64,000 nucleotides of DNA, from assembly GCF_902728285.1 (NCBI RefSeq), contig NW_027104472.1:1127681-1191680 (forward strand), given 5' to 3'. Each line of letters starts with the position of its first letter. Position 1 is the stretch's first letter. Position numbers and translations under genes: made by a program. The notes under the pieces were generated by a model. It did not search any database. It was not told the origin of the DNA and worked only from the letters and a program-made list of their open reading frames with translations. The stretch is from Clytia hemisphaerica. Its lineage: Eukaryota. Shown one piece after another: positions 32,724 to 63,689 of this stretch.

Positions 32724-33050
32724 TTAGGTACCTTAAAGGAAGAAGTTTTGGCGGGAATTTAATTTGGCGGATGACCGAAAAAGTTTTTTCAGAGGGAATT
32801 TAATTTGGCGGATGGCTGGAAAAATTAAATTTGAAGGGAATTTAATCTGGCGATTGCAGAATATTTTTGGCCAAAATCGTTATCAAATAAGCGAAAAAAT
32901 TTTTGTTTTAAGGCCTGAAATAGCACCAAGTTGGGGAATGCGTTAAATAAAATAAATTTGGCGGGAATTTAATTTGGCGGATTGAGGAAAAAATAAATTT
33001 TGGCGGGAACCGCCAAATTTTCTTTCCGCTAAAATTTCTTCCTTTAACGT
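32724..33050. mobile_element. MITE family F copy 2, inside intron 1 of the large minus-strand gene
   Basis: ggcgggaatttaatttggcggatgaccg...ggcgggaaccgccaaattttctttccgctaaaatttcttcc. Confidence 0.55.
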
Positions 33051-33291
33051 AAGTCGTATGTATTGTGGTATTCTGAAAACATCAAACGCTAAACTACATC
33101 CGGTCTCATCTCATGGATGGATTCTCAAAGTTCATCAGGAAAATGACCAGGTGAGGTTATTTTGAAAATTAATCGGCGGAATCTTAGATCTACTTCCCGT
33201 TGAAATAACCTTACGTTTATCCTATGAAACCAAACTTTGAGCAAGGAAATAGCTAAGGCTAATTGATACTGGAGTGTAGAATTAAACTTAC

Positions 33292-34303
33292 CAAGAATTA
33301 GACAAGCAATCAAACTTCCTTCGTTTGAAACGCTGCATGGAAAATGTTCGCTTAACGATCCAGTCAACATGTTAAAAGTCATTACAAGGTCTTGTATTAC
33401 AAATCCTCCACATTTATAAAAATGATGTGTCAAACGCCCGGCACAGTAGACAGAAAAGAAGGTTTTGAAGGAATGTGTGTCTGCGTTTAAAACAATGTAT
33501 TTGTCCAGTGACAACATTCGTTCTCCATCCTCAGCTGTAAACATAAGACCGGCAACACTCTCGTTGTTCGGGTTAATGACACAACTGTCGACAACCAATT
33601 CCAATTCACGACACGCTCTTAACGGACATGAATATAAACACGAGTCAGAGAAAACGTACAGGAAGTCATATGATGCAGCCACGTCGGTTACTTTCAATTC
33701 ATTTTGCAGGTCACCTATCACGAGATTACTTTCAAGTTGGATTTTACTGTCTGGCCAATCGAGAACATTAATAATAGAATAAAGCTGTGTCTTCTTTAGC
33801 CAGACAAGAACGGAAGAAGTTTTATTTCCGATAACGTGTACATGGAGCTCTCGCAAGTTATCAAACGCAGTGTAAACCAGCTCTAAATCCGAATCATCTG
33901 TTTCTTTCGTTAGACAAGTCTTTGAGAGCCGAACCAAAAAAGCTCGGTTTTTAGTCTTGCATTGTAAAGCAACCAAGTAGACAAAAGGTTGCACTAATAG
34001 AGCACTTTGTACTGAAATACACGAATCCCCCGTTACATTTTTAAGATTGATCTTGACAAGAGCACAATTTGAGGGTCCACTTTCTTCAGAGAATATCGCA
34101 TTTGCTTGCATTACATCATCAAGTAACGCCCATTCGACAACTGTTGTGTTTCCATGGGATACTGTTTGATAGGACATCGGGTTTGGACCAAGGTTTTTCG
34201 GTTTGTATAAGGAATCTTCGTAAAGTTCGGGGAAATATAAATTGCAGTTGACAAAGATACATAATGATGCGAATAAGCATATGTATGAGAAATGGTTCCA
34301 CAT
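33292..34303 (-). CDS. Large minus-strand gene, exon 1: ATG, signal peptide, Cys-containing ectodomain
   Basis: ATG at 34303. Translation MWNHFSYICLFASLCIFVNCNLYFPELYEDSL... (hydrophobic signal peptide) ...CPLRACRELELVVDSCVINPNNES...SLIACLIL(G). Strong donor CTTG|GTAAGT (minus) at 33291, phase 1. ORF-track entry 33125..34303 runs past this donor into the intron. A weaker alternative donor CCTG|GTCATT lies at 33147. Confidence 0.55.
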
Positions 34304-37327: not shown

Positions 37328-40300
37328 TGTACCTGTTGTGCGCAGATATGTAATTTTTGCGCAGGTATGTAATTTCTGCGCAGATATGTAATTATTTTGC
37401 GCAGATATGTAATTTTTGCGCAAATATGTAATTATTTTGCGCAACTATGTAATTTCGAGCTGCGCAGATATGTAATTAAATTTTTGCGCAGATATGTAAA
37501 ACACGATCTTTAAAATCAATGGTACCCCCTTGATAGCTTTTACCATTACTTTTACCTTTTTTTCGACTTAAGGTATTTTAGCTAATTCCTATCAAATACA
37601 AGAAGTAATATCTTATAACAACAATTTTTAGCTTTCGGTGATTGGTTCTTTCAAAGCAAAAATGGAATAGCGCCTTAAATGAAAGTAATTATTTTTCTTA
37701 TAAGAATCATCGTTATAAGAAAATTCTCTATAACTTTTCAACCACTAAGTTTTAGCTTTCGGTGATTGGTTCTTTCAAAGGAAACATGGAATAGCGCCTA
37801 AAATTAAACTAACTATTTTTCTTATAAGCATCATCTTTATAAGAAAATTCTCTATAACTTTTCAACCACTAAGTTTTAGCTTTTGGTGATTGGTTCTTTC
37901 AAAGGAAACATGGAATAGCGCCTAAAATTAAAGTAATTATTTTTCTTATAAGCATCATCTTTATAAGAAAATTCTCTATAACTTTTCAACCACTAAGTTT
38001 TAGCTTTCGGTAATTGGTTCTTTCAAAGGAAACATGTAATAGCGCCTAAAATGAAAGTAATTATTTTTCTTATAAGCATCATCTTTATAAGAAAATGATC
38101 TATAACTTTTCAACCACTAAGTTTTAGCTTTCGGTAATTGGTTCTTTCAAAGGAAACATGGAATAGCGCCTAAAATGAAAGTAATTATTTTTCTTATATA
38201 AGAATCATCTTTATAAGAAAATTCTCTATAAATTTTCAACCACTAAGTTTTAGCTTTCGGTAATTGGTTCTTTCAAAGGAAACATGGAATAGCGCCTAAA
38301 ATGAAAGTAATTATTTTTCTTATAAGCATCATCTTTATAAGAAAAATTATTTATAACTTTTCAACGACTAAGTTTTAGCTTTCGTTGAATGGTTCTTTCA
38401 AAGCAAAAATGGAATAGCGCCTTAAATGGATGTGACTATTTTTGTTATAAGCATCAGCTTTATAAGAATTAAATCAACAACTCTAGATAGACGGTCATAT
38501 ACCTTTCGGTAATTAGTTCTTACAAAGTAAGTAAGGGACGGCGCATAATATGATCATATTTATTTGTCTTATAAGGAACTACTTTATAAGAATCAAATCA
38601 ATAACTCTTGATAGACGGTGATATACCCTTCGGTCATTAGTTTTTACCTTCTGATAAGCATATACTTTATAAAGAATCAAATCAATAACTCTTAATAGAC
38701 GGTGATATACCCTTCGTTTATTAGTTCTTACAAAGTAAACAAGGGACAGCGCACAATATGAGCATATTCATTTTTCCTATAAGCAACTACTTTATGAGAA
38801 TCAAATAACTCTTGATAGAATAGTATTTACCTTTCGGTAATTACCGTACACGCTCCTTCTCTGAGAAAAAAGACTCCCTCAATGGGAGGTTTTAAAATTT
38901 TTAATTAACACCTTTTTCTTTAACACCCTTCCTGAAAGTCTTAAAATTAAAAAGACGCCCAGCGCGTTTATTCGAAGAAATACGATAGTTTTTACAACCT
39001 AATAGAAAAGTACAAATGAGATTTTTGATAGAACCTCGACTCGAGATAGTCACACCTATGTAAACTTTATTGATTTTGTAGATATGAATTGCATTTCTTT
39101 ACGTTACAGTGAGATAAAGTAAATTCTATTGGTTGTCTTTACCAATACATGGACTAATTTATGATAAAAAAACTCCCTTTTCCTTTTCATGGCTCGATCT
39201 ACGAGCAAAGTCATTAAATTTGATTGAATTGTCCAATGAAATAGAGTGGGATTATCGAAGTTGTGATTCTCGCTCGAACTTCAAATTCTGAAGAATGTTA
39301 CACAATTCAGGAATATTTTGACACTGATTGTTAAAGATATTTAAAAAAATTACATGTCTTTCTTATTTTCCCCTTACAAATTAAACTAAGGCAAAATATT
39401 TGACTTTAAGCCATCTAAAAGGAGACAAATTTAATTTTTTTGAAGTGGAATTGGCATTCACAATGACACAATGGCTCTATCGAAAGAAATAGGGAATTTT
39501 GCTAAATCTAACATTAGTTTATTAGAATTTTATAAGAACAAGGTTTTTTTCTAAGTGGAATAGGCTTTCAGAGATTTGATTTAGCAAACAAAAGCCAACA
39601 AATCTTGTTTGGGAGTTATGAATTGTGTTCTTATAAAGTTGATGCTCATGAGAAAAACAAAATTTTCTAGCTTAAGCACTATCCTATGTTTGCTTTGAAA
39701 GAACCGATCACCGAAAGCCAATATCTATTGGTTTGAGAGTTTTGATTTGTGTTCTTATAAAGTTGATGCTTATAAGAAAAATTTTTTTTCTAGCTTCAGC
39801 ACTATCCTATGTTTGCTTTGAAAGAACCGATCACCGAAAGCCAATATCTATTGGTTTAAGAGTTATGAATTGTGTTCTTATAAAGTTGATGCTTATAAAA
39901 AATAAATTTTTCTACCTTAAGCACAATCCTATATATGCTTTGAAAAAACCAAACGCCGAAAGCTAATAATCATTGGTTTAGGAGTTATGAATTGTGTTCT
40001 TATAAAGTTGATGCTTATAAGAAAAAAAAATTTCTAGCTTTAGCACTATCCTATGTTTGCTTTGAAAGAACCGATCACCCAAAGCCAATATCTATTGGTT
40101 TGAGAGTTATGAATTGTGTTCTTATAAAGTTGATGCTTATAAAAAAATAAATTTTTCTAGCTTAAGCACAATCCTATATATGCTTTGAAAAAACCAAACG
40201 CCAAAAGCTAATAATCATTGGTTTAGGAGTTGTGAATTGTGTTCTTATAAAGTTGATGCTTATAAGAAAAACAAAATTTTCTAGCTCAAACATTATCCTA

Positions 40301-40906
40301 TGTTTGCTTTGAAAATACCGATCACCGAAAGCTAATATCTATTGGTTTGGGAGTTATGAATTGTGTTCTTATAAAGTTAATGCTTATAAGAAAAATAAAT
40401 TTTTCTAGCTTAAGTACAATCCTCTATTTGCTTTGAAAAAACCTAACACCGAAAGCTAATAATCATTGGTTTAAGAGTTATGAATTGTGTTCTTATAAAG
40501 TTGATGCTTACAAGAAAAACAAAATTTTCCTCATTAGCACAGTCCCCTAGTTGCTTTGATAGAACCAAACGCCGAAAGCCAATATCACTTTGATAAAAAG
40601 ATATTGACTTGTTTCTTATAAAGATGATGCTTATAATAAAAACAACAATCGCCAAATGTTTGCCTTAGGTCCAAGAAAAATGTTCAAGATATTACTTAAT
40701 TAATGTTAAAATTTAGTTAGTTTTTCAAAAAATAACCAAGTCAAAAAGGTCGTGTTTTACATATCTGCGCAGAAATTTAATTACATATCTGCGCAGCTCA
40801 AAATTACACAGTTGCGCAAAATAATTACATATTTGCGCAGAGATTACATATCTGCGCAGAAATTACATATATGCGCAAAAATTACATATCTGCGCATAAC
40901 AGTACC
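37328..40906. mobile_element. Foldback-like transposon, about 3.6 kb. Long inverted arms are built of tandem subrepeats.
   Basis: Outer inverted repeats of the motif tgcgcagatatgtaatt, 9 times at 37338-37500, versus aattacatatctgcgca, 7 times at 40760-40900. Inner arms are tandem arrays of about 124-bp units (37570-38860, contains gctttcggtgattggttctttcaaag). They are inverted in the right arm (39590-40660, contains ctttgaaagaaccgatcaccgaaagc). The central unique region 38860-39590 has no long ORF. Confidence 0.75.
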
Positions 40907-41240
40907 TCTTATTCTAACCTTTCTTTCCCATTAATTCACACACCTTATCTTGCAATAGCTATTCAAAAGAATTATAGCATTAAATAAAGCGTATCATGAA
41001 TATTAAAAGAAATATCTTAACTAAGTTTCGATGAGAATTTATCGATATAATAGTTATAGATCAGAAAGTACTTTCATTTGAAAGATCCGAGAAAGAAAGA
41101 TGGTAAGGTATTATGAGAAATCATTGTGTTAGAAAAAAATTGCGATTTTAAAAATCAGTGAGTTCAAGTTTTTTTAGAAATTTATACGGTTTGATACAGT
41201 GAATTATGTACTTTTTAAAAACATTGCGTCATGAGTACAT

Positions 41241-42908
41241 GTGACGATGGCTGCTAATAACGAACCGTTTCATCTATACCATTTACAGCTATTTGCTGTA
41301 AGTTCTATTGGACAACTTGCTTTACAGAAACTTATTGAGCGTTTTGCGAAGGAAGAAAAAGAAGGTGTTGCTGATGCTAAGGAAGCACTAAGTCAAATTT
41401 TTAATGACAATGCGGAGGAAGTGAAAAAGATTACCAATATATTTGTCAACCCTATTGTCACAAATGCAGTTTACGAAAACACTGTTAACCATGTTCTTAA
41501 AGAAGAGATTGAAATTGAAAAGTTAGACACCAACACATGTGCTGATGTCCTACGCAGAATCAAAGCGTTCCAAACTTCTAAAGATCATGCAGGTTCAAAA
41601 AATTGGCGTTGCAAAGGGCAAAACCATTTGAGTAAATGTTGCCCAGATTGTAAACATCTATGTCCTCAGCCTGACTGTCGGAAGGTAAAATGTAAAAAGA
41701 AGTGCTGTGTAACAAACAAAGAACACTGCTCTCATCCATGTATTCATTGTTGTTTACCTAACGACGACTGTAAGGATAACAAATACCTATGCTGTAAAGA
41801 TTGTTCATGCCTTGGCTGCGTACTGAAAGCCCTGGGTCTCAAAACTTGGCATCAACTTTACAAGGCTTTGGTTGACGAAAGCTTAACGACACACAACGTT
41901 TGTCCGATATTGCTACTACGGCTATCAATTTCAATTATTTCAACCTTCCGTAACATAACCATGCACTTGACAATACCTACATGTCGGAGTATGGACAATG
42001 GAACCTTTTTTGACCCAAATGCCCCTGCATATTGTACTTCATGGAAATACATCAAAGATACTCTTTGGTTTGCTGTTAAGACCTTGTTGGAGTATTTGAA
42101 AAACTGTCAACATATCACTGGATTTGATTATAAAGAACATTCTGAACTATTGGCTTTAATTTGTGGGGCTTCAAACAAACAGGATGTTTCAGTGTACAGT
42201 GCAAGGATTCAAAAGTTTGCAGAGCTTGAGAAATATTCTAAAATGGCCGATCTATTGATAACGTTAAAGATTGATTTAGATGTCGTCCATAAAAAGGTGG
42301 ACAAGGTAGATCAAACCACAAGGAATACCGAGAGAATTATCAAACAAAAGTCCCTAAAGATTGAAGCTCAAGCCGAGTTAGGGAAAAAGATGGACCGACC
42401 CTGTGATATGGATTCGCCGGAATTCGAAGAATTGAGAACAGCATTTGGAATCTCTGTAAACAAGTATTTTGGAGATGATGCCGAGGCAGTTATTACTCGC
42501 TTCAAATCGTTTCCATCTAACCATTTACCAGCAGACACGATTGAAATAAGATTCAAGATAACGTCAGATGAGACTTCCCTAAGAAATTATCGAGAATATA
42601 GAAAGGGACAGTCCCCGTCGTCCCCTCTTTGGAATGAAATAAAAGGAATCTTGCAACATACATTTCCTGGTGCTGAAATTTATGGTCCTGTTGATTGGGA
42701 CAGTGGCTCTATCATAATTCAAGTTTTGCTTTCGAAGGAAAAGAAAACTGACTGGACCACAAAGGAACTTGCGAATGTTGATTCTGTATTGGTGAAACTG
42801 GAAAAAAATGTTGAAGATTACTTACCTCAAGTGAAATGTGCTTGTAAACGAGTGGAACAGCCGAAGATATCAGCTACCCAGTTTCTGGAGATGAAAAACA
42901 GACAATAG
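41241..42908 (+). CDS. Intronless 555-aa ORF, Cys-rich central region, no recognised family
   Basis: ATG at 41241, TAG at 42906-42908. 1.67 kb free of stops in roughly 33% GC DNA. Central cluster CKGQNHLSKCCPDCKHLCPQPDCRKVKCKKKCCVTNKEHCSHPCIHCCLPNDDCKDNKYLCCKDCSCLGC. AT-rich TATA-like sequences lie upstream. Confidence 0.5.
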   Translation: MTMAANNEPFHLYHLQLFAVSSIGQLALQKLIERFAKEEKEGVADAKEALSQIFNDNAEEVKKITNIFVNPIVTNAVYENTVNHVLKEEIEIEKLDTNTCADVLRRIKAFQTSKDHAGSKNWRCKGQNHLSKCCPDCKHLCPQPDCRKVKCKKKCCVTNKEHCSHPCIHCCLPNDDCKDNKYLCCKDCSCLGCVLKALGLKTWHQLYKALVDESLTTHNVCPILLLRLSISIISTFRNITMHLTIPTCRSMDNGTFFDPNAPAYCTSWKYIKDTLWFAVKTLLEYLKNCQHITGFDYKEHSELLALICGASNKQDVSVYSARIQKFAELEKYSKMADLLITLKIDLDVVHKKVDKVDQTTRNTERIIKQKSLKIEAQAELGKKMDRPCDMDSPEFEELRTAFGISVNKYFGDDAEAVITRFKSFPSNHLPADTIEIRFKITSDETSLRNYREYRKGQSPSSPLWNEIKGILQHTFPGAEIYGPVDWDSGSIIIQVLLSKEKKTDWTTKELANVDSVLVKLEKNVEDYLPQVKCACKRVEQPKISATQFLEMKNRQ

Positions 42909-44291
42909 TTCAGGTTGGCATTGGTATTTACACCAAATCGACGAAAAGATTCGATGATGAATGGATGATGGCTTCTACAAATGAAATCCTGAAGGAGAAA
43001 AACATTAAAATCATAAGTAAGTCATTAGTTTATTTTGGATTAATACTGTATTTCCCGAAAGGGTGGGGAAGGGATATAGAATAGTCTGAGTAGAAAATTT
43101 GCGATGTAAATATTTTGGGCAAAATTTAACTTAAATTTAAACATGGACTGAACAATGGGCTCTTCCAGAAAGAATCCGTTCATGGGGGCGTAGCTTCACC
43201 CTCAAAATATCCTTTGTTTTTATACAGGCCTAAGCTGTCTCGATGAAAAGAAGAACAATGAAAAAACAAGATTGACCGAAAAAGGTGAAATTTTTGGGGA
43301 TGAATGGTTTCATGGACAAAAGACCGAAACCATGCAAAAAGATGTAAGAATAATTTAATTTAGTTTAAGATGTAAGAATAATTTAAGAATTATATGAACC
43401 AGGGCAACGATATGAATTTGATGTAAAAACAAGTGTACTTTGTGCGGTAATTTGCCCCCGCAGTAACTTGCCTCTTCGTCCTGAATTTCACTCCCTATAT
43501 TAATTTTGACCGACATTGAGATTCAGTATTTACAATACACCAAAGAAAAATGCTAACAAATCCCGGTTCTTTAAAAAAAAGTAAGATTTTTGTGAGTTTA
43601 CGGATAATTTTCTATTGATCTTTTTTTTATATATCGGACGGAGGATCGAGACAAAAATACCATTAGTGCTAAAAGATATTTTTCTATTGCATAGAAAGCC
43701 TGTCTTCTTGAATTTTGACCTACACAAAAGTATCAAAATTTATTAAAAAAGGGTGAGCAAAATTGAATGTAGAATTCACACTATCATAAAAAGGTAATTT
43801 AATTAAAATGAGATTTTCAAGTATTGTTTTAGTGGAAATGTTATTTTTATGGTTTCCGTAGACCTAAATAATCCAAAATTAAACTTCAATAATTAGAATC
43901 TCAATAACTCGACCAGCCAGAGGGAAAGGAAACCGTTCGATTTATGGAGACATTCGAGTAGTAGAGGTTTTCAATTTTTCTCTAAATTTCACCCTTATTC
44001 GGCTACCAGATAAGCAAAAACAGATTCTGGGTTGGTGAAATACAAAAAGTGGTGCTTTTTTGTTACACTTTTCTCAATTTTTGAAAAGTTATGATTGTGA
44101 TTATTTACAAGAATCATAATAGCCTCGAACCTTAAAGGGGAAAAATAATCTGTTTGACTTAAAGGAACATTCGAGTTATAGAGGTTCGAGTGGAAGAGGT
44201 TTTTATAAGAGTTTACATAAGGGAATTTCGAGTTCGAGTTAAGGATACGTTCGAGTAAAAGTTATTCAAGTTATGGAGATTCTACTGGAAT

Positions 44292-44535: not shown

Positions 44536-45039
44536 AGGGTTCTTTCTTAGGTTCTTTTTTTTTTTTGCTTTCTGAACAAAGTTTCAACTTTAGATACGTT
44601 AAATCATTTTACAGCTTACCAATTGCAAAATTTAATCATTTTAGGGCTGTTCAACCGCTTAAGTGGTACCCGGGGGACACTCGATTCAAAAACGACCGTA
44701 CGCACGCCCCCCCCCCTCGGAGTGGTAATTAACAGAGAGGGGAAATTTAGCTTAAAAGTTAAAGTGGGATGCTAAATGACTACCTGAAAAGTGGGATGGG
44801 GGAACCCGGGAACCTAAAGTGGGAACCTAAATGAACACCTGAAAAGTGGGATGGGGGAACCTGGGAACCTAAAGTGGGAACCTAAATGAACACCTGAAAA
44901 GTGGGATGGGGGAACCTGGGAACCTAAAGTGGGAACCTAAATTTTTATTTTTATTTATTTTTATTTTTTTTTTATTTTTTTTTTTTATAGCAATATATTT
45001 CGCAGGTCTATTGACCTCTATGAAACAGAACTTTTGATT

Positions 45040-45297
45040 TTACATTTTATAAAGTTTTTTCTCCCTTTCTTTTATCAAACGCTCTTTGAAGACTTGTAAG
45101 GATGGTGCTTCAACAATTTCTTCTTCTAGATCATTCCAAGGTTTCACACTTCTGTAAAAAAGAGAGTTGCTTTGGTAGCCTCTCATACCGTCATTAGCAA
45201 AGTTCCTTTGAACAGGGTTCCCAGCACTTAAGAGAAATGTTTTTTCCTGACTTTTTCCAAAAAAAAGACCTTTTTCCATGACTTTTAGATTGACCAA
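45040..45297 (-). pseudogene. Second LINE RT tail fragment (extreme C-terminus)
   Basis: Translation RNFANDGMRGYQSNSLFYRSVKPWNDLEEEIVEAPSLQVFKERLIKE. This matches the terminal CR1-like motif FF..RV...WN.LP..VV.A.S...FK..LD. Confidence 0.6.
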
Positions 45298-46345
45298 GGT
45301 GCCTTTTTCCCTGACCAGAGCAGAATATTGGGCCTTTTTCCCTGACCGTTCGCCCCAACAGTATTTTGAAAAACACCATATTGAGATAAAAAAAACAAAA
45401 ACTTAACACAATTTCAATACATATATTTTTTAAAAAGCGAGTCTACTAAAACCCCACTAAAACCAGGATACAAAAGGGGTACCGTCGTATGAACGTGCTA
45501 TCATTTGAATGAAAACTTTTCTCTTTCTAAAAAGATTTTCTTCAATATGCATCATTGCTGATAATCCTTTCTTCATTCCAAGATAATAAACATTACTTTT
45601 GTCAATTTACATTCATTTTAAGAAAATAGCTCCTAATTCAGTCACTCATTTTATTCACAACTCATTATAAATATTATTAGACACGTGCAATTTATATCAT
45701 CACGTAGCAAATTTCAAAACTAGGATGAATGGGAAAACATTTTAGGTTTGCTAGATTCAAAAACTTTATCTTATAGGCTCTACCTATACACAGGCCGAAA
45801 AAACTATATCCTGCAATATCAAAACTAAAACCATATCATACAGCTATATGAGCTAAAAATATAATCCAACAGTTGAATTTCTAACTTAAAAAGTGAATAA
45901 TAACATTTAAGTTCGCTCAAAAAATATTCTGAGATCTACTTAAGTTTTTGGCGTTTTGCTTTTATTTGTGTATGTAAGTCATCAAGGTCCTCATTGAGTT
46001 CATTCTGCCTTCTTTTTAAAGTATTAGCCTTAGTAATCAAAGAGACCATTTCGTTTGGGCGTTTTTCTGCCTCACTGACTAGATTGACGAAATCACTGTC
46101 GAGTGACTGGCAAGTCTTTTTGATTTTAGATTCCTTTGCAACAAGCTCATCAATCGCTCTTTGAAGAAGTTCTCTTTTTTCTTTCAAGGCATCCTTTGCT
46201 TCAATGTCAGCCTTTTCCTGTAAACTTTCTTTGTAACGTGTATGGGCTGATTTGCAAGACAACACTAGTTTAGATGGTGGAGAAAAGTCTTTTTCTTATT
46301 ACTCATTTTTCCGAGGGGTAAATCACTAAAAATTAGGTGTACGAG

Positions 46346-46518
46346 ATTTTGATTTCTTTTTGATTTTTGATTTCTTTTTGATTTCTTTTTGATTTTTGAT
46401 TTTTTTTTTGATTTTTTTTGATTTTTGATTTTTTTTTTGATTTCTTTTGGATTTCTTTTGGATTTCTTTTGGATTTCTGATTTCTTTTTGATTTCTTTTT
46501 GATTTCTTTTTGATTTTT
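46346..46518. repeat. Minisatellite gatttc(t)ttt(t)t(g) inside a small hairpin-ended unit (46306-46560)
   Basis: More than 20 units of gatttctttttgatttttgattt. Flanks gaggggtaaatcactaaaaattaggtgtacg and cgtacacctttttgaaaaatc...cagtgatttacccctcg are inverted. Confidence 0.7.
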
Positions 46519-46836
46519 CAAAAAGGTGTACGTGATTTTTTTCAGTGATTTACCCCTCGCATTTTTCTACCACTAAAACGAAATAAAAGAAAGAAGAATG
46601 AAGAGATAAGTAAAACAAAACTGTCAGAACTGTGGACTAAATAAATATCACAGAGCTCATACGATACACCAATACTTACTGGCTGATAAAATACCTGCAA
46701 AAATGAAAGATGAAAAGGATAATATCATTTCAATTATCATTTGTAATTTGCAGTTGACTGATTTTGGAATTCCCTGACTTTCCCTGATTATTCCAAAAAA
46801 AGTTCCCTGACTTTTCCCTGACTTTCACTACTTTTT

Positions 46837-47433
46837 CTAAATTTTCCCTGACTTTTCCAGGTCTTCCCTGACTTTTTCCGAAAAAGCTACTTTTTCCAGG
46901 TTTTCCAGGTTTTCCCTGACCGCTGGGAACCCTGTTTGAAGCTCGTAATCATGCTGACGTCGTGGTCGTGTTCGAGGAGTAAATTTCTCTGATCTTATAG
47001 ACTCGTCATAAATGTGGAGGTTCTTGAAAACTTCCACCATATCACCAACTTGCCGTCTGGTCTTTAGGCTAGGTAGATTGATGAGTCGTAGCCGATCTTC
47101 GTATGAGTAGTTTTTATAGCAACTAACTAGCCTTGTAGCTCTTCGTTGGACGCCCTCGATTGCATTGATATGTTTGATTAGCCTTGGAGACCATACTACA
47201 TGTGCATATTCCAAATGGGGTCTGACAAATGCAATGAAAAGCGTTCGAAACATATCTGGTGAGAGAAATTCGAAGCTCCTGCTAATCAAGCCAACGATAG
47301 AGTTAGCTTTCTTGATTTTACTGAATATATGGGCTTCAAAGGTCAGGTCACTATCAATTATCACTCCTAGATCTTTTTCTTGGTCAACATGTTCTAGAAC
47401 AGATCCTGCTATGGTATTTGTAGGGATGGACAT
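46837..47433 (-). pseudogene. Degenerate non-LTR (CR1/Jockey/L2-type) reverse-transcriptase C-terminal region
   Basis: Translation KDLGVIIDSDLTFEAHIFSKIKKANSIVGLISRSFEFLSPDMFRTLFIAFVRPHLEYAHVVWSPRLIKHINAIEGVQRRATRLVSCYKNYSYEDRLRLINLPSLKTRRQVGDMVEVFK. This matches the conserved LINE ORF2 tail pattern (..LGV.ID..L.W..HI..KAN..LG.L.R.......LYK..VRP.LEY...VW.P.....IE.VQRRATR......SYE.RL..L.L.SL..RR..GD.IEV.K). There is no upstream RT core. Confidence 0.7.
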
Positions 47434-49656
47434 ATTTGATGTTCCAAAATTTACCCAGTGTTAAAACATGACACTTGTTCGGATGAAATTCTAAAAGCCA
47501 GTCCTTTGACCAAATTTTAAACCCGTAGAGTGCACTTATTCTCATTTTTGCTCATCTTCACCCTTACAGTGTACTTTGGGAAGCTTGGAAAAAAGGGCCG
47601 CACGTACGGTAGGTCGTTTACCTTGAGTGCCCCCCCCCCCGTGGATCTATGCTTATGTGTATTGAAACGTGGCAAGCCGTGCAATATGTTCTATTTTACT
47701 ATCAAACATTTTTAATTAATGAAGGGTATTCACACGCTGTACTGTTTGGTTGGTACAGAAAGAAAAACGAGCTAGAATCCGTTAAATGCTAAGCGACCCC
47801 AGCCCTGACCCGAAAATTGGAGCTGCTAATAAAAAACAATGTGTATTGCATCAAGAGTGAACAAAAACTAGATCGTAAATAATGTTTTACTAGATTCTGT
47901 ATTCAAGCAAATTAGATCCGTGCAAAAGAAAGAAGAGGCTCTAAGTTATCCATCGAGCTATGAACGAACTTCTAATTCCTTCTAGATTTGAAGATATGAC
48001 GGTTTAAAGTTTAAAGTTTAAAGTCAATTAAGTCAATTTACTAAAAAGAACCTTTCAAAAAGATGCACTATAAAACTGCTGATAAATAAACATGCTTTTT
48101 TGAGCTAATTGAATAAATAAATTCCCTTTGTTTTATTTTCAACATTATTGTTTGCGAACCGTAATGTAAGAAGTAAATAACTGGTGTTCTTATTATGATA
48201 AAAGGTTTTTTCTTTCATTGCATATAATATCTTTCTTATCTTTATGTATTTGTTTTTAAAGAAAAATATTTCAATTATATTAATAATTAAACAACTTAGG
48301 TTCCCACTTAGGTTCCCCCATCCCACTTTTCCGGTAGTCATTTAGGTTCCCACTTTAGGTTCCCGGGTTCCCCCATCCCACTTTTCAGGTAGTCATTTAG
48401 GTTCCCACTTTAGGTTCCCGGGTTCCCCCATCCCACTTTTCAGGTGTTCATTTAGGTTCCCACTTTAGGTTCCCGGGTTCCCCCATCCCACTTATCCGGT
48501 ATGCCATTTTTTCGGTACAAAATCTTCTATTTTATTGCAAATTTCAAATTAAGATATCTTTTTATATAGTAATGCTATGAACTTGAAATTTTGACAGTAG
48601 TTTTGCATGGACAAGACAAACCATTTCCAGAAAAAATTTTTTTGATTACGTCATAATTTTAAAATGGCGCGCCAAAATCAGAAAAATTAATTTTTGAGAC
48701 TTTGGCGCCAAATAGGGGCTTATTTAGTGGGGAATTCATTTGGCTACCAAGTTTCATATTGAAAAAAAAGCCCGGCCCAAATCGGGTTAAACCGCGTAAT
48801 TTATTGAATATTTAGGATAAAATAAGCATTTTAGATTTAGGCAATATTTTTCTAAAGCCTTTGTTAGAATACAATAGCTATTTATAAGAACAAAAGAAAT
48901 TTTCGGTTTTTGCTCACTTTGGGCATGATGAGTGACGTCATAAAAAAATTTTTTGTCAAAAGTTACCTTATGTGACAAGGATCTTGTGTGCCAAACTTCA
49001 TCCAAAAAGACCCACTAGGTCAAAAGTTAAGGGGTGGTACAGGAAAAGCCCGCCCCCTAGTTTTGAGCCGCCCCTAAAAACCTAGTATGAATAGGATTGA
49101 GTTAACCTGAAATCTCATAATTATCTAGACAAACCTGCGTACTTATTTTTGAAACACCCGGTCTATTTGAAAAACTTAAACGAGAGAAAGAGAAAAAATT
49201 GACGTTTTTGGGACCCTTAGAGAGCCCTGTAATTTTCTGTTTACAACCCTTTTTTGAGAGAGAGAAATTTTAGAGCGTAACCCTTATTGTAACCGACTTT
49301 CTAGTGTGTAAAAATGAGACCCTTGTGGCTCGCACATACCCGACACCCATTTTGCCTATGTATTTTGCCTCCCCCCCCGGGATCGAACCTGGCAAAATGA
49401 ATCCTTTGAAAAAATGTAATTGTCTGTGCCTCTGAGTTGGTATCAGCTAAGATTGTTCTTGGTAATTACATAAAATGTATTATTCTTAATTACGGTATTA
49501 CTTCGAATAAACGCCCCCTTCTTTTAAACGTTCCCTAGAATAAACACCACTCCTGCAATCACAGCAATTTAGTAAACGCCCGGTCGTTGGCGTTTGTTCA
49601 AAGTAAGACGGTATGCTGCTTATGAGGCTTATGTCTGCTTTTATTTCTCCTTTCAG

Positions 49657-49959
49657 ACAGCTTATTCCGATAAAAACCTTGCAGAAAAATTAGCTGAACT
49701 CGAAAAAGAAAGGGATGCGTTCAAAGTAAAATATGAAGCAGTACAAAAAACACATTCTGAAATCATAATTGGCAAAGATGAAAGCCTTAGAAGTTTGGTT
49801 GATCAAATCAATCACCAAAAAAAGACCATTGAAGTGCAACGAAAACAACTGGAACGTCTAAATAAACAAAAAGAAACAACAGAATGGAAGAAGACAGCTT
49901 ATCTGAATTCGGTGTACGAAGAATCAGCAGAAAAAGATAAACAAATCGAAGATTTAAAT
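49657..49959 (+). CDS. Coiled-coil/PDZ protein gene, exon a (coiled coil)
   Basis: Acceptor ttctcctttcag (ag at 49655-49656). Translation TAYSDKNLAEKLAELEKERDAFKVKYEAVQKTHSEIIIGKDESLRSLVDQINHQKKTIEVQRKQLERLNKQKETTEWKKTAYLNSVYEESAEKDKQIEDLN. Donor AAT|GTTTGT at 49960 is weak. Further 5' exons are probably upstream. Confidence 0.45.
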
Positions 49960-50226
49960 GTTTGTATCATCATTATTTTTCTTGTGTTTAGATGCCAATC
50001 CAAATTTTTGGTCCGTTATCAATTAAAACTTTTTGGGTTATCTGCAATTTTAGAGCAGTAGTGTGGTGTTCATCTCTCTTGACTCCCGACTGCAAGATTC
50101 CCCTCCGCCGTGTGTCTGTCTGTCTGTCAAGTCTTTTGTTTTGCCAAAAACCCAGATATACCAAGATTTTGGTGAATATGTTAAAAGCCTTAAAGGAAAA
50201 ATAAAATATCAACAATTTGTTTTCAG

Positions 50227-50337
50227 AAAATGTGCGACTTTAAAAATCGGCAGTGCAAAGAGCTTGAATCGAGAAACAAAAAATACGAAGAAAACATACA
50301 ACAGATACGGGTTGAAAATGATAGTCAATATACAAGG
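50227..50337 (+). CDS. Coiled-coil/PDZ gene, exon b
   Basis: Acceptor tgttttcag (ag at 50225-50226). Translation KMCDFKNRQCKELESRNKKYEENIQQIRVENDSQYTR. Donor AGG|GTATGT at 50338. Confidence 0.5.
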
Positions 50338-51806
50338 GTATGTTTAGACTTAAAGATTTAAGTGTTTCCGTTTCATATCAGACACATATTTCATATCAGG
50401 ATAATGTCTGTCTATTGTTATGTTATACTGATATAAGCGAAAAAATGTTTTTCTTTTCGTTTTTCTGACCAATCTTGCTCCACATCCGTGTCAATCCAAT
50501 GTGAGAAAGCTTGAAAATTAAATAAATTGATGAGTAACCAAACGATATCACTCTTATTTAAAGACAAAACCTTTAATACGACCAACTATGAAGCTTTGGC
50601 CGGGATAAAACTAGGCTGAAAGCATCCCATCTGATATGTTTTGATAAAGGGGATGCTCATCGTGTATAAGATTCCCGTTCGAGAGTTACCCCCGGGGGGA
50701 GGGGGGTACTAGGGCAAGATGGGTTACGGGGATGCTCCGCTGGTCAGGGTACCTTTTTTAACCTCCACGGGTCCCAGGTAGGGTCGCAAAAACACCAAAA
50801 TAGAAAAATCAGTCCCTCGTAGGGTGCCTATTTTTGGAAAATTTGAGGAAAAAGTAGAAAATCTGAGAAAATTTTGGAATTTTAGTCCCATTCAGGGTCA
50901 CTTTTTTCGCAAATTTCGAGTCCCACGTAGGGTCCATTTTTCGAACCTCAGCCCTCCGTCGGTCGACAAGGATAGCACTCCCCCCCCCCGGGAGTTACCC
51001 CCGTTTTTGTGTTTTTTTTTTCAGTTTTAGAAACTTGATTAGTAAATATGAGAGATCTTCAAATTTCATTACATTTATATTAAAAATTTGAATGGCTCTA
51101 GGTTAATACAATCATTGGGCTTGTTAACCTTAATATGAAAATCAAACAGGTTACCCCAAATTTGTGGTAATTCTCGAACAGGAATTTTATACACGATTAT
51201 CATCCTCTATATCAAAACATATCAGAGGGCATCCTAGGATGAAACAGTGTACCTACCCCAGTACGGGTTTGATAAAAGAAAAGTTAGCATTTACTTTATA
51301 ATAAATTTTTCCAACCCATAGTCTTTATTAGATTTATTAGGCAGTTTTTTAAAAACAATTTCAGCTTTCAAAAAGAGCTCTCCTTTTTTTTTTTTTCATC
51401 ATACAAGATCGACTTCTCTAAAATAAAATAGGGTTCTTCTGTCTACAAATTAAAGGATAAAAACAACTTTATAAATGTTTAAATGAAACAACTAAAAACG
51501 AACTTCCACATTCGTATAAACCGTGTGATTTTATCACAAACGTCGGAGTTAAAGCTCGAGATTCAATTGGAGGCCAAATTCTTTGATTGGAGACTTTTTG
51601 TAAGGGGTACCCCTAAATGAGATACTACTCGATAGGGGTACTCTCTGCACCAGAGTGTATATCTGTATAACGTAGCTTAGCGCAGCGCAATAGTTAGCGT
51701 AATGAATTTTGAAATTTCCGTATATATTGGGTCTTTTTACAGAAAATATTAGAGGTTTAAATGCGTCGAGAGATTGGTTGCAAGATTTTATGTTATTTAC
51801 TTGTAG

Positions 51807-52505: not shown

Positions 52506-53734
52506 GTAAGTAGCAAAATCGTTTTCAAACACGAGCCTTGTGTGTTAGAATAACAATTAAGTTTTGAAATTAAAGTTTAAGTAAATACAGTAAACGTGTA
52601 CATATTTTTCCTCTAGTATTAAGAAAGATTTATAATACCCTCGAATTAGGCTTGGGGACACGTAGCAATAAGTGTCTTTGTTGCTAAGTGTACATTTTTG
52701 ATACACCTTTCCCGTAATTCCCGGGGGGGGGGAGCACTCGATTTTGAAAACGATCGTACGTTCGGCCAAAAATCAGGTCTCTAAAATCGGACCCTTACAG
52801 TGCAGGAAAAATTTGGCTGAAAATCGACCCTTATAGTGCAGTTTGCAAAGTTGTTTGAAATTTCTCAAATTTTACCTCAAAATTTGGTATTTTCTCAATT
52901 TTTACACCCTTGCAGTGCACTTTTTCCCACTTGCTCACAAATCAACCCTTACTGTGCACTTTCCAAAGTCCAAAAAACCTACCCTAAGGGCCGCACGTCC
53001 GGTAGGTTACACCCCCGGGCGTAATTCAAACTTCTCAGAAATTGCCCACGAAAATGTGCGCTCCAACGTTGTGTATAAAATTGTTTGGGAGGTAAACGAA
53101 CGCGTTTTTGCCTGCGAGGGGTTAGGGAAAGTGGGTTTTCAGCTTCTAACATTCTTCATGGCAAAAGATTTTCAGGGTGGTATAATATCATGAATAAATT
53201 GAACATACTAAAACAAAAAAAAAAAAACTTTCCCTAAGGAAACGCAGGCAAAAACGAGTTTGTTTACCTCCAGAGACCAAACGATGGAGAGCATCAAAAT
53301 AATGCGCGCGCATTAGTTTTACGAATTACGGGAAAGGTGTATTCCCTCGATGTCAATCTATTTTTAGTCTCAACTCCAGAGTTACTAGCCCTTTTTAGTT
53401 GCCGCTCGCAAATTGAGGGGTCCGCATTTAGCCCCTTTGGAGGGAAGACCGTTTTTTTAACTGTGGATAGGCCTCGCAGATGAGAACGGTCTCTCGCCTC
53501 CACATGGCAAGCAGTGACCCCGATTTTCTCTGTTTTTCATTAACACTTGAGGTATTATTGTTCCTTTTTTTTACATAGATAAAAACGAAAACAATGTAAA
53601 TATAACTTTTTTCAATGAAACCATTTATAACTATATACCATAACTTATTCATGGTGATAAAAAGAGATGAGGTCCCACGCGGGAAAATAGACACAACTTT
53701 TTTTAGGACACCCTGTATGAACTTCTATTTTTAG

Positions 53735-53996
53735 AGTTGGAGACTACTTGGTCAGTATGGACGACATAAATGTAACGAACAGCGAACTACAAAATGTCAA
53801 AGAAATCCTGGATAGAGCATCCCTTACATTAAAACTAGTGTTGCGTGGTCCAACAAAGGCAATCGAAAAAAGATACGATATCACTCTTTTAAAAAGTGAC
53901 CCTTTTAGGAGAACTCTTGATGTCACCATAGTGATAAGAACTAATAATGACGATGAATCGGACACCAAGTTGAGAAATGGTGATCGTATTGAGCAG
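53735..53996 (+). CDS. Coiled-coil/PDZ gene, exon f (N-terminal part of PDZ domain 1)
   Basis: Acceptor ttctatttttag (ag at 53733-53734). Translation (S)VGDYLVSMDDINVTNSELQNVKEILDRASLTLKLVLRGPTKAIEKRYDITLLKSDPFRRTLDVTIVIRTNNDDESDTKLRNGDRIEQ. The GDRIEQ|VNG split is typical of the PDZ GD.I..VNG motif. Donor CAG|GTAGTT at 53997. Confidence 0.55.
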
Positions 53997-54382
53997 GTAG
54001 TTATTTATGCTAATACCATGTTTCGGCGTTACGGTTCAACATCGTTCCATCTTAAACAAACCGAGACAACAGTTCGGTGTCGGTAATTTGACCGATCAAG
54101 ACCTCACTTCACGTCATGTTAGTTGTTTGTTTTAATCGAGCAAATGCGGCTCTCCAAATCTTTGTCCATGATTATATTACGGTTCTTCGAACGTTTTCCT
54201 CTTTTACTGCTAAACTACACGCTTTTTATGAGAATAATTTTAACCACGCAAGGTTAAAAATTGACCAAATCTAAGAACAAATTAAGAACAATCTGAGACT
54301 CAGCTATAGCGAATATTCAAGAACACTAGAATAGAACAAACTGGGCAATTCTAAAAACAGTTTGTACTCCCTATGTTGAGTT

Positions 54383-58494: not shown

Positions 58495-58708
58495 GTTAAC
58501 GGAAAAAATGTCAACAAATATCCACTTAAACAATTGCGTGAGAAACTCGTAGAAGATAAAGAATTGAGTTTGAAGATCGTTAGAGAGGAGTCTCAAACAT
58601 CTTTCATACCATTTACAAGAAGTCAACCATTCAAAATACAGCTACTTCCATCGTTCAGTGAAAGTGTGAAAAGTTTACCTGAGATTCTTTTGAGAGAGTC
58701 CAATCGAA
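58495..58708 (+). CDS. Coiled-coil/PDZ gene, exon g (C-terminal part of PDZ domain 1)
   Basis: Acceptor ttttataattatag (ag at 58493-58494). Translation VNGKNVNKYPLKQLREKLVEDKELSLKIVREESQTSFIPFTRSQPFKIQLLPSFSESVKSLPEILLRESNR(S). Donor A|GTAAGC at 58709, phase 1. Confidence 0.55.
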
Positions 58709-61766: not shown

Positions 61767-61929
61767 TGAGTTTGACAAGGTGAAAGTTGACATTAAGGAG
61801 AAAGGAGAAAAAGAAGAAATTGGCTGTGAATTGATTGGTGGTAATAAAATTGGAATTTACATCGATGATGTATCCGTGAATTCGATTGCAGACAGAAGCA
61901 ACATTAAGCGAGGTTGGAGGATTCTTAAG
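61767..61929 (+). CDS. Coiled-coil/PDZ gene, exon j (PDZ domain 2, N-terminal part)
   Basis: Acceptor attttccttag (ag at 61765-61766). Translation (S)EFDKVKVDIKEKGEKEEIGCELIGGNKIGIYIDDVSVNSIADRSNIKRGWRILK. Donor AAG|GTAACA at 61930. Confidence 0.55.
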
Positions 61930-62417
61930 GTAACATAACGCTTAAAGGCCTGGGGCCACTTGAAACATTCTTCATCAAATAGAAACATTTAAAATCTGAA
62001 ACACGCAAAAATTTTCACTTTGATGAAAAAGTTGCTAGTGACCCTACCTCAAAAGATGAAAAGAAATGCTAAACAAATTGATTTCTGAAATAACAAAAAA
62101 TGTTTCGGAAAAATTCATTTGGTCAATACAGCACACATAATCAAAGCAAAAGCAAAGCATAGACCCCCAAAAATAATCACACTTTGAGGAGCCATGTATT
62201 GAATTTCAAGCCCGAAGGGCTAGAGGCGAAACTTTAACCCTTCTCAGGCAAGAGAAATTGAAGCCACTTATTTCCCATCCAAAACGCGCATAGAACGCGC
62301 CGTAATCATGACGACGGATTGTATCTAGAGGTTCCTTTGTTTTGGAGAACTGCATTTTTTTAAATCTAGCGATGGATTTTATTTTCAATCCGACATTTGT
62401 GTAAAAACTTTTTTAAT

Positions 62418-63583: not shown

Positions 63584-63689
63584 ATCAATGAACAATCCAT
63601 GAACAATGTGGCACTTTGTTATGCTTACGAGTATTTTTTGAATCAGGAAAAGAAAACCAAAATGACTATCCACTTTGAAATGGTTCCTG
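63584..63689 (+). CDS. Coiled-coil/PDZ gene, exon k (PDZ domain 2, C-terminal part). The gene continues beyond the window.
   Basis: Acceptor ttcttcattttag (ag at 63582-63583). Translation INEQSMNNVALCYAYEYFLNQEKKTKMTIHFEMVP(G). Donor G|GTAAGA at 63690. Confidence 0.55.

What the first reader, a model, noticed from the sequence alone, without database searches (positions are those of the whole stretch)
41241..42908. Orphan-looking intronless 555-aa ORF with a dense Cys cluster, between two foldback elements
The ORF is 1668 nt with a proper ATG and stop. It has a CxC/CC-rich 75-aa core (CKGQNHLSKCCPDCKHLCPQPDCRKVKCKKKCCVTNKEHCSHPCIHCCLPNDDCKDNKYLCCKDCSCLGC) and alpha-helical-looking N- and C-terminal regions. 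A stop-free run this long is unlikely by chance at roughly 67% AT. I recognise no family. It lies between foldback elements at 37328-40906 and 44745-48510. It could be a lineage-specific gene, a retrogene, or the remnant ORF of an unrecognised mobile element.
Basis: seen in the sequence. Interest (0 to 1): 0.55.

Follow-up and report, generated by a model that had tools for sequence, protein, structure and literature searches.

The report
HEPN-like first exon, hydrozoan gene
The long ORF is real, but it is neither an orphan nor an intronless gene: it is the large first coding exon of a multi-exon hydrozoan gene that joins a probable RNA-cutting (HEPN-like) domain carrying a conserved zinc-type cysteine cluster to an adaptor-like domain and PDZ scaffold domains.

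Summary
The ORF at 41241-42908 exists and is far beyond chance. Its first ATG is at 41247, matching the MAANN start of its closest relative. It is single-copy in the window and under purifying selection (dN/dS about 0.22).

It is not an orphan. A profile search finds 180 related protein clusters; the only named ones are from the hydrozoans Clytia and Hydractinia.

It is not intronless. The closest homologue is a 1269/1270-aa Clytia protein with PDZ and SH3 domains, and its later parts match the window colinearly on the + strand out to 63685. The TAG at 42906 follows a 1-nt deletion beside an A5 run. The shifted frame stays homologous up to a conserved GTAAGT donor at 43017.

The exon encodes three parts:
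- a helical domain with invariant D94 and an RNxxxH motif at the end of a long helix, which fits the HEPN RNase definition;
- a roughly 70-residue insert with about 20 conserved Cys/His;
- a coiled coil followed by an RRM-like domain with the TRADD-N-type G-S turn.

Sequence and fold links to known HEPN and TRADD-N families stay below threshold. It is an uncharacterised lineage-specific family of a known general kind, of moderate interest.

The parts
41247..42908 (+). The ORF as it reads in the assembly: ATG at 41247, TAG at 42906-42908, 553 aa. This is the main part of the first coding exon.
   Evidence: 59% identical to Clytia P0157 aa 1-536. dN/dS 0.22 against L001.
41268..42176 (+). N-terminal helical HEPN-like domain (aa ~8-310), including the Cys-rich insert.
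41526..41528 (+). Codon of invariant Asp94, at the N-terminal end of helix 95-104. Candidate for the 'helix-2' acidic residue of HEPN domains.
   Evidence: D in 49 of 49 aligned homologues. Helix position. HEPN definition from PMC3710099.
41610..41819 (+). Cys/His cluster (aa 122-191). Putative multi-zinc module inserted between the candidate helix-2 and helix-3.
   Evidence: 19 Cys and 5 His in 70 aa. About 20 Cys/His positions are conserved in 50 homologues: C122, C131, C132, C135, H137, C139, C144, C149, C153, C154, C161, H163, C165, C168, C175, C182, C183, C186, C188, C191. No Pfam match to the cluster consensus.
41949..41966 (+). R235-N-I-T-M-H240: an Rx4H motif with Asn after the Arg, at the end of helix 220-239 and the start of the following loop.
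   Evidence: R in 49/50, N in 43/50 and H in 43/50 homologues. Position in the model. Matches the HEPN description in PMC3710099.
42192..42347 (+). Long single helix (aa 316-367), a likely coiled-coil linker.
   Evidence: AF2 secondary structure H316-367, pLDDT about 55-75.
42417..42851 (+). Alpha/beta domain (aa ~391-535) with a beta-alpha-beta-beta-alpha-beta (RRM/ACT-like) fold. Candidate TRADD-N-like adaptor domain. The G487-S488 turn lies at 42705-42710.
42894..42898 (+). A5 homopolymer, site of the 1-nt deletion relative to homologues that creates the TAG at 42906.
   Evidence: DNA alignment with L001 shows a single 1-nt gap here. L001 has one uninterrupted ORF through this point.
42899..43016 (+). 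Continuation of exon 1 in the +1-shifted frame: QTIVQVGIGIYTKSTKRFDDEWMMASTNEILKEKNIKII. It ends at the GTAAGT donor (43017-43022).
   Evidence: tblastn hits: P0002 at 64% identity, E 1e-12, and P0157 aa 528-575. Translation. dN/dS 0.34 over 39 codons. The donor is conserved in L001.
43228..43343 (+). Candidate exon 2: AG acceptor at 43226-43227 and GTAAGA donor at 43344. It is in phase with the frame-corrected exon 1 and reads S-LSCLDEKKNNEKTRLTEKGEIFGDEWFHGQKTETMQKD.
   Evidence: Read from the sequence. Weak resemblance to P0157 aa 576-615. This is an inference, not a significant alignment.
49660..49959 (+). Candidate coiled-coil exon, inside the ORF 49594-50061.
   Evidence: Colinear local alignment to the P0157 coiled-coil region, score 62. 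Weak evidence.
53733..53999 (+). Downstream exon matching the PDZ region of the Clytia homologue (aa 772-856).
   Evidence: tblastn E 7.6e-13, 37% identity. Pfam PDZ_6 E 0.0025.
58495..58587 (+). Downstream exon matching homologue aa 856-886.
   Evidence: tblastn E 1e-4, 52% identity.
61774..61932 (+). Downstream exon matching homologue aa 1062-1113 (a further PDZ domain).
   Evidence: tblastn E 1.2e-8, 45% identity. Pfam PDZ E 3.9e-4.
63584..63685 (+). Downstream exon matching homologue aa 1113-1146. The gene runs off the end of the window before the SH3 part.
   Evidence: tblastn E 2e-8, 65% identity. SH3 lies at aa 1167-1225 of P0157.

Best explanation
The ORF is the large first coding exon of a multi-exon, + strand gene of at least 22 kb, running from 41247 past 63685 and off the window. 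It looks like the counterpart of Clytia hemisphaerica XP_066912007.1 / transcript model TCONS_00025963 (1269/1270 aa), though only gene order and similarity support that.

The exon encodes a conserved three-part module.
1. A four-helix-bundle domain carries an invariant Asp (D94) and an R-N-x3-H motif at the end of its third core helix. I read this as a HEPN-type, metal-independent endoribonuclease domain.
2. An insert of about 70 residues with about 20 conserved Cys/His lies between core helices 2 and 3. It is most likely a multi-zinc structural or nucleic-acid-binding module.
3. A coiled coil is followed by an RRM/ACT-like domain with the G-S turn typical of TRADD-N adaptor domains.

In this gene the module is followed by a coiled coil, PDZ domains and, in Clytia, an SH3 domain. 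In paralogues it is followed by NACHT or other STAND NTPases, a KH domain, or other tails.

Inferred mechanism: by analogy with other HEPN RNases, cleavage is probably licensed when the protein oligomerises through the coiled coil or adaptor domain, and the PDZ part would hold it at a cortical or membrane complex. The family would then act in RNA-directed defence or cell-death signalling, as proposed for HEPN-TRADD-N-STAND proteins of marine invertebrates.

Shown: the gene structure, the conservation, the motifs and the predicted folds. Inferred: RNase activity, zinc binding, regulation and biological role.

The TAG at 42906 comes from a 1-nt loss in an A-run. That is either an assembly error or a very recent mutation.
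For: Gene structure:
- tblastn of P0157 gives colinear + strand matches: aa 1-536 at 41247-42893 (59% identity), aa 528-575 at 42881-43012 in the shifted frame, aa 772-856 at 53733-53999 (E 8e-13), aa 856-886 at 58495-58587, aa 1062-1113 at 61774-61932 and aa 1113-1146 at 63584-63685.
- The Clytia cluster holds NCBI, UniProt and transcript-based models.
- A conserved GTAAGT donor sits where similarity to L001 ends.
- Exon 2 is in phase only with the corrected frame.
- dN/dS is 0.22 in the main region and 0.34 after the shift.

Family:
- 180 clusters match at E<=1e-3.
- One paralogue carries a NACHT domain, one a weakly matching STAND-type P-loop plus KH, and one PDZ.

HEPN features:
- R235/N236/H240 are conserved in 98/86/86% of homologues and D94 in 100%.
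- In the high-confidence model (pLDDT 86.7) RN ends helix 220-239 and H240 starts the loop. D94 precedes helix 95-104, and the Cys cluster lies between these two helices. This is the arrangement PMC3710099 gives for HEPN.
- After removing the insert, the few Pfam hits include HEPN_DZIP3 (E 0.0039 and 0.032), HEPN_RiboL-PSP (E 0.018) and HEPN_MAE_28990 (E 0.048).
- The best local hhalign alignments fall on the expected motifs: LDTNTCADVLRRIKAF against DZIP3 FDLCLLLALIKHLNVF, and RNITMH against CXorf38 RNEIMH.

RRM-like domain:
- The G/S-S turn between beta2 and beta3 is conserved and matches the TRADD-N 'uS' motif.
Against: - No significant sequence or fold match ties the helical domain to any HEPN family. 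Pfam finds nothing for the native proteins. The best hit with the insert removed scores 17.4 bits against a cut-off of 27.
- hhalign probabilities are below 1% against single DZIP3 and CXorf38 sequences.
- Foldseek finds nothing below E 0.7.
- The C-terminal domain has no Pfam, PDB or hhalign link to TRADD-N, and its fold is very common.
- As assembled, the reading frame stops at 42906. The downstream exons would then not be translated from this start.
- The exons between 43343 and 53733 are only weakly supported.
- Zinc binding and RNase activity are untested.
Confidence: 0.6

Rival explanations
1. The frameshift is real. The locus is then either a recently disabled pseudogene, or a gene that now makes only the 553-aa HEPN-like/RRM-like protein without the PDZ tail.
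For: The assembly as given reads TAG at 42906 after a 1-nt gap relative to L001. Other family members appear to exist as proteins of about 580-640 aa, so a short form could be viable.
Against: The shifted frame stays open and homologous for 39 codons, up to a conserved splice donor, with dN/dS 0.34. All matched downstream exon pieces are free of stops. The indel lies in a homopolymer, a typical place for assembly errors. The short 'solo' forms on metagenome contigs are ORF calls that read into the intron after the same donor position.
Confidence: 0.3
2. The N-terminal domain is not an RNase. It would be a non-catalytic helical bundle, for example an adaptor or a membrane-acting four-helix 'executioner' domain like those at the N-termini of other NLR-type proteins, and the RNxxxH would be a structural or binding motif.
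For: Fold searches give only generic helical-bundle matches. One weak Pfam hit is to SesA, an N-terminal domain of NACHT proteins (E 0.055). One paralogue, P0005, has a Gly/Ala-rich hydrophobic tail.
Against: Near-invariant polar residues (D94, R235, N236, H240) in exactly the HEPN arrangement are expected for an active site. They are not expected for a membrane-inserting bundle. Several of the few sub-threshold Pfam hits are to different HEPN families.
Confidence: 0.25
3. The ORF is a separate gene of about 590 aa, and the Clytia models that join it to the PDZ/SH3 part are read-through fusions of two neighbouring genes.
For: No transcript data exist for this window. The middle exons are weakly supported. 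Gene predictors do sometimes fuse neighbouring genes.
Against: The corrected exon has no stop before a conserved GTAAGT donor. NCBI, UniProt and transcript-derived Clytia models all join the parts. The same order and strand are kept in the window.
Confidence: 0.1
4. The ORF is the remnant of a mobile element or a retrogene, carried between the two foldback elements.
For: It lies between two foldback structures, and an unclassified 198-aa ORF lies inside the second one.
Against: There is a single copy in the window, and no near-identical copies in the databases, the closest being about 59% identical. The two foldbacks share no repeats. There is no poly-A tract after the ORF. The gene order matches a multi-exon Clytia gene. 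Selection is purifying. No transposase, RT or integrase domain is found.
Confidence: 0.02

Closest known systems
DZIP3/hRUL138-like HEPN domains (Pfam PF18738), expanded in Nematostella and oyster and fused to NACHT, Death, CARD, TPR and RING domains (PMC3710099, Table 1)
   Same: Both have a helix beginning [FL]-D-x3-L-x2-[IL]L...F, then an insert, then a helix ending in R-N-x3-H, then W...L. Relatives of both are fused to NACHT or other STAND NTPases. Both show lineage-specific expansion in a marine invertebrate. The only Pfam hits obtained for the whole helical core are to this family.
   Different: Scores stay below Pfam's cut-off (17.4 against 27 bits). The short GW-type loop of DZIP3 is replaced here by a cluster of about 70 residues and 20 Cys/His. 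There is an extra N-terminal helical elaboration (aa 44-90).
CXorf38 family (Pfam PF15112/DUF4559), described as 'Zn ribbon inserted into HEPN' and fused to NACHT and Death domains in cnidarians and cephalochordates (PMC3710099)
   Same: The concept of a zinc-binding insert inside an active RNxxxH HEPN domain. hhalign places RNITMH on RNEIMH.
   Different: No Pfam DUF4559 hit in any of 50 members, and hhalign probability is 0.4%. The human protein has a four-Cys ribbon that lies before the D-containing helix, as I read my recalled sequence. Here a cluster of about 20 ligands lies after that helix.
HEPN-TRADD-N proteins of marine invertebrates (Kaur, Iyer, Burroughs and Aravind 2021, PMC8195603)
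   Same: An N-terminal HEPN-type effector followed by an RRM-like domain with a tiny-residue-Ser turn between beta2 and beta3. The C-terminal partners vary and include STAND NTPases and KH. The expansion is lineage-specific.
   Different: No sequence-level link to TRADD_N, TRADD-like_N or the NCOA6-type models. No DED or Death domain is present. No hydrozoan entries appear in that paper's stored tables. Here the partner is a PDZ/SH3 scaffold.
Yeast Swt1 C-terminal HEPN domain (PDB 4pqz), and the AbiF (8vz6) and Csm6 (6tug) HEPN domains
   Different: Sequence identity is only 7-12%. Non-HEPN helical bundles score equally well.

Membership tests
HEPN superfamily (definition from PMC3710099) | Four-helix up-down bundle made of two alpha-hairpins | tested here: met
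HEPN superfamily | [quoted passage not shown] | tested here: met
   R235-x4-H240 is conserved in 49/50 (R) and 43/50 (H) homologues. R235-N236 end helix 220-239 and H240 lies in the loop.
HEPN superfamily | Polar residue (N, D or H) immediately after the Arg | tested here: met
   N236 in 43 of 50 homologues.
HEPN superfamily | Conserved acidic residue in helix-2, lying close to the motif | tested here: inconclusive
   D94 is invariant (49/49) and lies at the N-terminal end of helix 95-104. Its 3D closeness to R235/H240 could not be checked because no coordinates were available. There is no Ex3[KR] form of the motif.
HEPN superfamily | [quoted passage not shown] | tested here: met
   The Cys cluster (aa ~110-191) plus two short helices lie between helix 95-104 and helix 220-239.
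HEPN superfamily | Statistically significant profile or structural similarity to an accepted HEPN family | tested here: not met
HEPN superfamily | Metal-independent endoRNase activity that depends on the R and H | not testable with these tools
   Needs biochemistry.
DZIP3/hRUL138-like HEPN (PF18738) | Score at or above the Pfam gathering threshold (27 bits) | tested here: not met
   No hit for the native sequences. With the insert removed the scores are 17.4 bits (E 0.0039) and 14.5 bits (E 0.032).
CXorf38 (PF15112) | Pfam match or profile similarity | tested here: not met
   No DUF4559 hit in 50 members. hhalign probability is 0.3-0.4%. The control sequence, recalled from memory, hits PF15112 at E 5.7e-78.
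TRADD-N domain (definition from PMC8195603) | RRM-like two-layer alpha+beta sandwich with a four-stranded antiparallel sheet | tested here: met
TRADD-N domain | Conserved 'uS' motif (tiny residue, then Ser) in the beta2-beta3 turn | tested here: met
   G487 (G in 21 and S in 5 of 32) and S488 (27 of 31) lie between strands 477-485 and 488-496.
TRADD-N domain | Sequence-profile similarity to TRADD_N, TRADD-like_N or the NCOA6-type models | tested here: not met
   No Pfam hit for the members or the consensus. The PDB profile search finds nothing relevant. hhalign against human TRADD gives probability 0.15%.
Transposable-element ORF or retrogene | Many near-identical copies, a transposase or RT domain, and a poly-A tail or target-site duplications | tested here: not met
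   One copy in the window. The closest database relative is about 59% identical. No such domain is found. No poly-A tract follows the ORF. A whole-genome copy count could not be made.

The most novel reading that the evidence does not exclude
This is the founding example of an undescribed, hydrozoan-restricted branch of HEPN RNases. In it a module of about 70 residues and about 20 Cys/His ligands (up to five zinc ions) has been built into the helix-2/helix-3 insert. It is coupled to a divergent TRADD-N-type switch domain and, in this gene, tethered to a PDZ/SH3 scaffold. That would be an RNA-cleaving effector placed at cell junctions or the cell cortex. The Cys cluster may be a new zinc-binding fold that recognises nucleic acid.
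Probability: 0.35. Interest if true: 0.5.

Novelty: new variant of a known kind. Interest (0 to 1): 0.3.

Why it matters
If the reading is right, hydrozoans have their own sizeable family (about 180 clusters at 50% identity) of HEPN-type effectors. These carry an unusual, strongly conserved poly-cysteine insert and are shuffled onto NACHT/STAND, KH, PDZ/SH3 and other tails. This would extend the catalogue of invertebrate HEPN/TRADD-N immune-type proteins to a class that published surveys did not list and that Pfam does not cover. It would also offer a tractable test case, because Clytia and Hydractinia are genetic model animals. For genome annotation, the practical point is that the locus is one long gene whose first exon carries a probable homopolymer error. 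It is not an orphan single-exon gene.

Tried and rejected
- Pfam on the native ORF at E<=10 and on 50 family members at E<=1 gave no family for the conserved module.
- PDB sequence searches with the ORF and with the profiles A3 and A6 gave only weak or irrelevant hits: a TYMV protease at E 0.018, an 'Endoribonuclease' 9wiw at E 0.016 aligned outside the motif, and LAP1.
- hhalign against single human CXorf38, DZIP3 and TRADD sequences was not significant. I recalled these sequences from memory and validated them by strong Pfam hits.
- The second and third word-indexed protein searches returned only 3 hits each, so no diverse DZIP3 profile could be built.
- The AlphaFold database fold library was unavailable.
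- Foldseek against the PDB found nothing.
- Looking up encoding contigs for the Clytia proteins P0005 and P0007 failed.
- Three cluster look-ups added no taxon names beyond Clytia and Hydractinia.
- No Pfam family was found for other large ORFs in the window.
- Rejected: chance ORF, a composite transposon bounded by the two foldbacks, and retrogene.
Full report
**Observation**

The ORF listing returns the ORF 41241..42908 on the + strand. Position 41241 is a GTG. The first ATG is at 41247, and an in-frame TGA lies at 41232-41234. From the ATG the product is 553 aa and begins MAANNEPFHL, the same start as its closest relative in Clytia, MAANNLPFHL.

With the window's base composition, a stop-free run of 555 codons has a probability of about 3e-18. 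Twenty shuffles of the window gave longest runs of 104-184 codons. The quoted Cys-rich core is present: aa 122-191, with 19 Cys and 5 His in 70 residues.

Both flanking foldbacks are real but belong to different repeat families. One has 124-nt sub-repeats and the other 55-nt sub-repeats, and no repeat links the two.

**Not an orphan**

Pfam finds nothing in the ORF. The word-indexed protein search found six relatives at 30-55% identity, two of them named Clytia hemisphaerica.

An HMM built from these sequences was searched against 1.84 billion cluster representatives. It found 180 proteins at E<=1e-3 and 47 at E<=1e-30. The named members are from Clytia hemisphaerica and Hydractinia symbiolongicarpus. 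All other members looked up (30 clusters in all) are unnamed ORFs on metagenome or read-assembly contigs. So the family is sizeable and, as far as names go, hydrozoan.

**Not intronless, and the stop is suspect**

Several homologues continue past the window's TAG. tblastn shows that P0002 continues in the +1-shifted frame at 42899-43033, at 64% identity and E 1e-12. That frame reads QTIVQVGIGIYTKSTKRFDDEWMMASTNEILKEKNIKII.

The metagenome contig L001 carries one uninterrupted ORF through this point. A DNA alignment shows a single 1-nt gap in the window, directly after the A5 run at 42894-42898. It also shows a shared AAGTAAGT at the place where similarity then decays.

dN/dS against L001 is 0.22 over 428 codons before the shift and 0.34 over 39 codons after it. 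The sequence beyond the TAG has therefore evolved as coding sequence. The indel is either a homopolymer assembly error or a very recent mutation.

**The gene model**

The closest relative is a Clytia cluster that includes XP_066933823.1 (981 aa), XP_066912007.1 (1269 aa), UniProt 'PDZ domain-containing protein' entries and a transcript-derived model, TCONS_00025963 (1270 aa, P0157). I treat it as the likely counterpart of the window gene, on the evidence of similarity and gene order only. P0157 carries three PDZ stretches and an SH3 domain after the conserved N-terminal 575 aa.

Its pieces match the window in order on the + strand:

| P0157 residues | Window position | Support |
|---|---|---|
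| aa 1-536 | 41247-42893 | 59% identity |
| aa 528-575 | 42881-43012 | shifted frame, 54% identity |
| aa 772-856 | 53733-53999 | E 8e-13 |
| aa 856-886 | 58495-58587 | E 1e-4 |
| aa 1062-1113 | 61774-61932 | E 1e-8 |
| aa 1113-1146 | 63584-63685 | E 2e-8 |

Reading the sequence, GTAAGT at 43017 ends exon 1 in phase 1. An AG at 43226-43227 opens a 116-nt candidate exon (43228-43343, donor GTAAGA) that is in phase only with the corrected frame. Weaker colinear pieces lie at 49660-49959 (coiled coil), 50239-50340, 52390-52464 and 60693-60806.

On this model the second foldback (44745-48510) is intronic, and the first lies about 340 bp upstream of the ATG.

**What the exon encodes: the helical domain**

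A 50-sequence alignment (A2) shows invariant D94, about 20 conserved Cys/His between 122 and 191, invariant C219, and R235/N236/H240 conserved in 98/86/86% of sequences.

AlphaFold2 on the full exon gave a moderate model (pLDDT 69). On a 24-sequence alignment of aa 1-320 it gave a confident one (pLDDT 86.7, pTM 0.86). In that model D94 precedes helix 95-104. The Cys cluster follows that helix. R235-N236 end the long helix 220-239, H240 opens the loop, and helix 266-286 follows.

Anantharaman et al. (PMC3710099) define HEPN domains as follows:
[quoted passage not shown] - a polar residue (N, D or H) after the R;
- an upstream acidic residue in helix-2.

All of these positional features fit the model.

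Independent statistical support is weak:
- Foldseek finds nothing.
- After the Cys insert is cut out, the few Pfam hits include HEPN_DZIP3 (E 0.0039 and 0.032), HEPN_RiboL-PSP (E 0.018) and HEPN_MAE_28990 (E 0.048). All are below threshold.
- hhalign against single DZIP3 and CXorf38 sequences is not significant, but it aligns exactly the expected motifs.

The same paper records CXorf38 as a 'Zn ribbon inserted into HEPN', and records DZIP3-like and CXorf38 HEPN domains fused to NACHT and Death domains in cnidarians. Here, one family member carries a NACHT domain. A Hydractinia member carries a KH domain and a weak, sub-threshold match to STAND-type P-loop models.

I therefore read the domain as a divergent HEPN domain with a poly-zinc insert, at roughly 60% confidence. 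I do not file it as a member of PF18738 or PF15112.

**What the exon encodes: the C-terminal part**

The turn between beta2 and beta3 carries a conserved W-x-x-[GS]-S. Kaur et al. (PMC8195603) describe TRADD-N as an RRM-like domain with a conserved 'uS' motif in that very turn. They also describe N-terminal HEPN plus TRADD-N proteins in cnidarians.

No sequence-level link could be shown, and the stored tables of that paper contain no hydrozoan entries. This assignment is suggestive only.

**Mechanism (inferred)**

HEPN RNases are metal-independent and use the R and H of the motif (PMC3710099). From general knowledge of Csm6, RNase L and Cas13, they usually need two motifs brought together.

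I infer the following. The coiled coil and the RRM-like domain control self-association. The Cys cluster is a zinc-stabilised structural or RNA-binding module. The PDZ part localises the protein. The C-terminal tails vary between paralogues: NACHT, STAND-like P-loop plus KH, PDZ/SH3, a Gly/Ala-rich hydrophobic tail in P0005, or unrecognised sequence. That variety is the pattern reported for immune or conflict-type effectors.

**Verdict**

The locus is the 5' exon of a long, conserved, lineage-specific gene with a probable homopolymer error. It is not an orphan, not intronless, not a retrogene and not a transposon ORF. The protein family is uncharacterised and absent from Pfam, but it fits a known general kind.

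Noticed in passing
window 37328-40906: Foldback structure built from arrays of about 124-nt tandem repeats in opposite orientation. The outer arms 37395-37511 / 40745-40861 are 94% complementary, and there are short 19-21-nt repeats at the left end. It ends about 340 bp upstream of the gene's ATG.
   Followed up: partly
window 44745-48510: Second foldback, unrelated to the first. It has 55-nt sub-repeats in terminal inverted arms (44781-44942 / 48340-48501, 96% complementary), a T-rich 11-nt repeat array at 46336-46540, and a 198-aa ORF on the minus strand at 46837-47433 with no Pfam match. On the gene model proposed here it lies inside an intron.
   Followed up: partly
window 28459-34303, minus strand: Three large ORFs of 709, 423 and 392 aa in series on the minus strand, probably exons of one big gene. 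The 709-aa ORF is Cys-rich at its N-terminal end and then has several hydrophobic segments. No Pfam match at E<=0.001.
   Followed up: partly
window 15875-17118, minus strand: Overlapping ORFs of 287 and 183 aa made of a repeated unit of about 55 aa (...FWGLGRVFRQNEAKTLGQPGDFKNCSIWLKF...). This region also has strongly negative GC skew (16001-18000: -0.199).
   Followed up: no
window 1070-1513 (+) and 26447-26953 (+): The first is an ORF fragment with a hydrophobic segment followed by GEGQFGKVF, which looks like a kinase glycine loop. The second is a 168-aa ORF that looks like a multi-pass membrane protein. Neither has a Pfam hit at E<=0.001.
   Followed up: partly
L004 (ENA ERZ25072490 ctg196563, 474,833 bp): Two diverged paralogues of the family, P0004 and P0148, come from the same long metagenome contig, so the family has more than one copy in that genome. 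An ankyrin-repeat ORF lies about 8 kb downstream of P0004.
   Followed up: no
P0005 (Clytia hemisphaerica, 886 aa), roughly aa 600-690: In this paralogue the shared module is followed by a long Gly/Ala-rich hydrophobic stretch (GAAATVIGGLGVIGASSSAVAIGSAAGLAGSG...). It looks like a glycine-zipper membrane segment. No Pfam match.
   Followed up: no
L001-L003 (metagenome contigs): Hydrozoan-like genomic DNA appears in environmental metagenome assemblies. There, prokaryote-style gene calling reports this exon as a stand-alone protein whose tail reads into the intron, for example P0002 ...KSKWSVYPEVLFS.
   Followed up: partly
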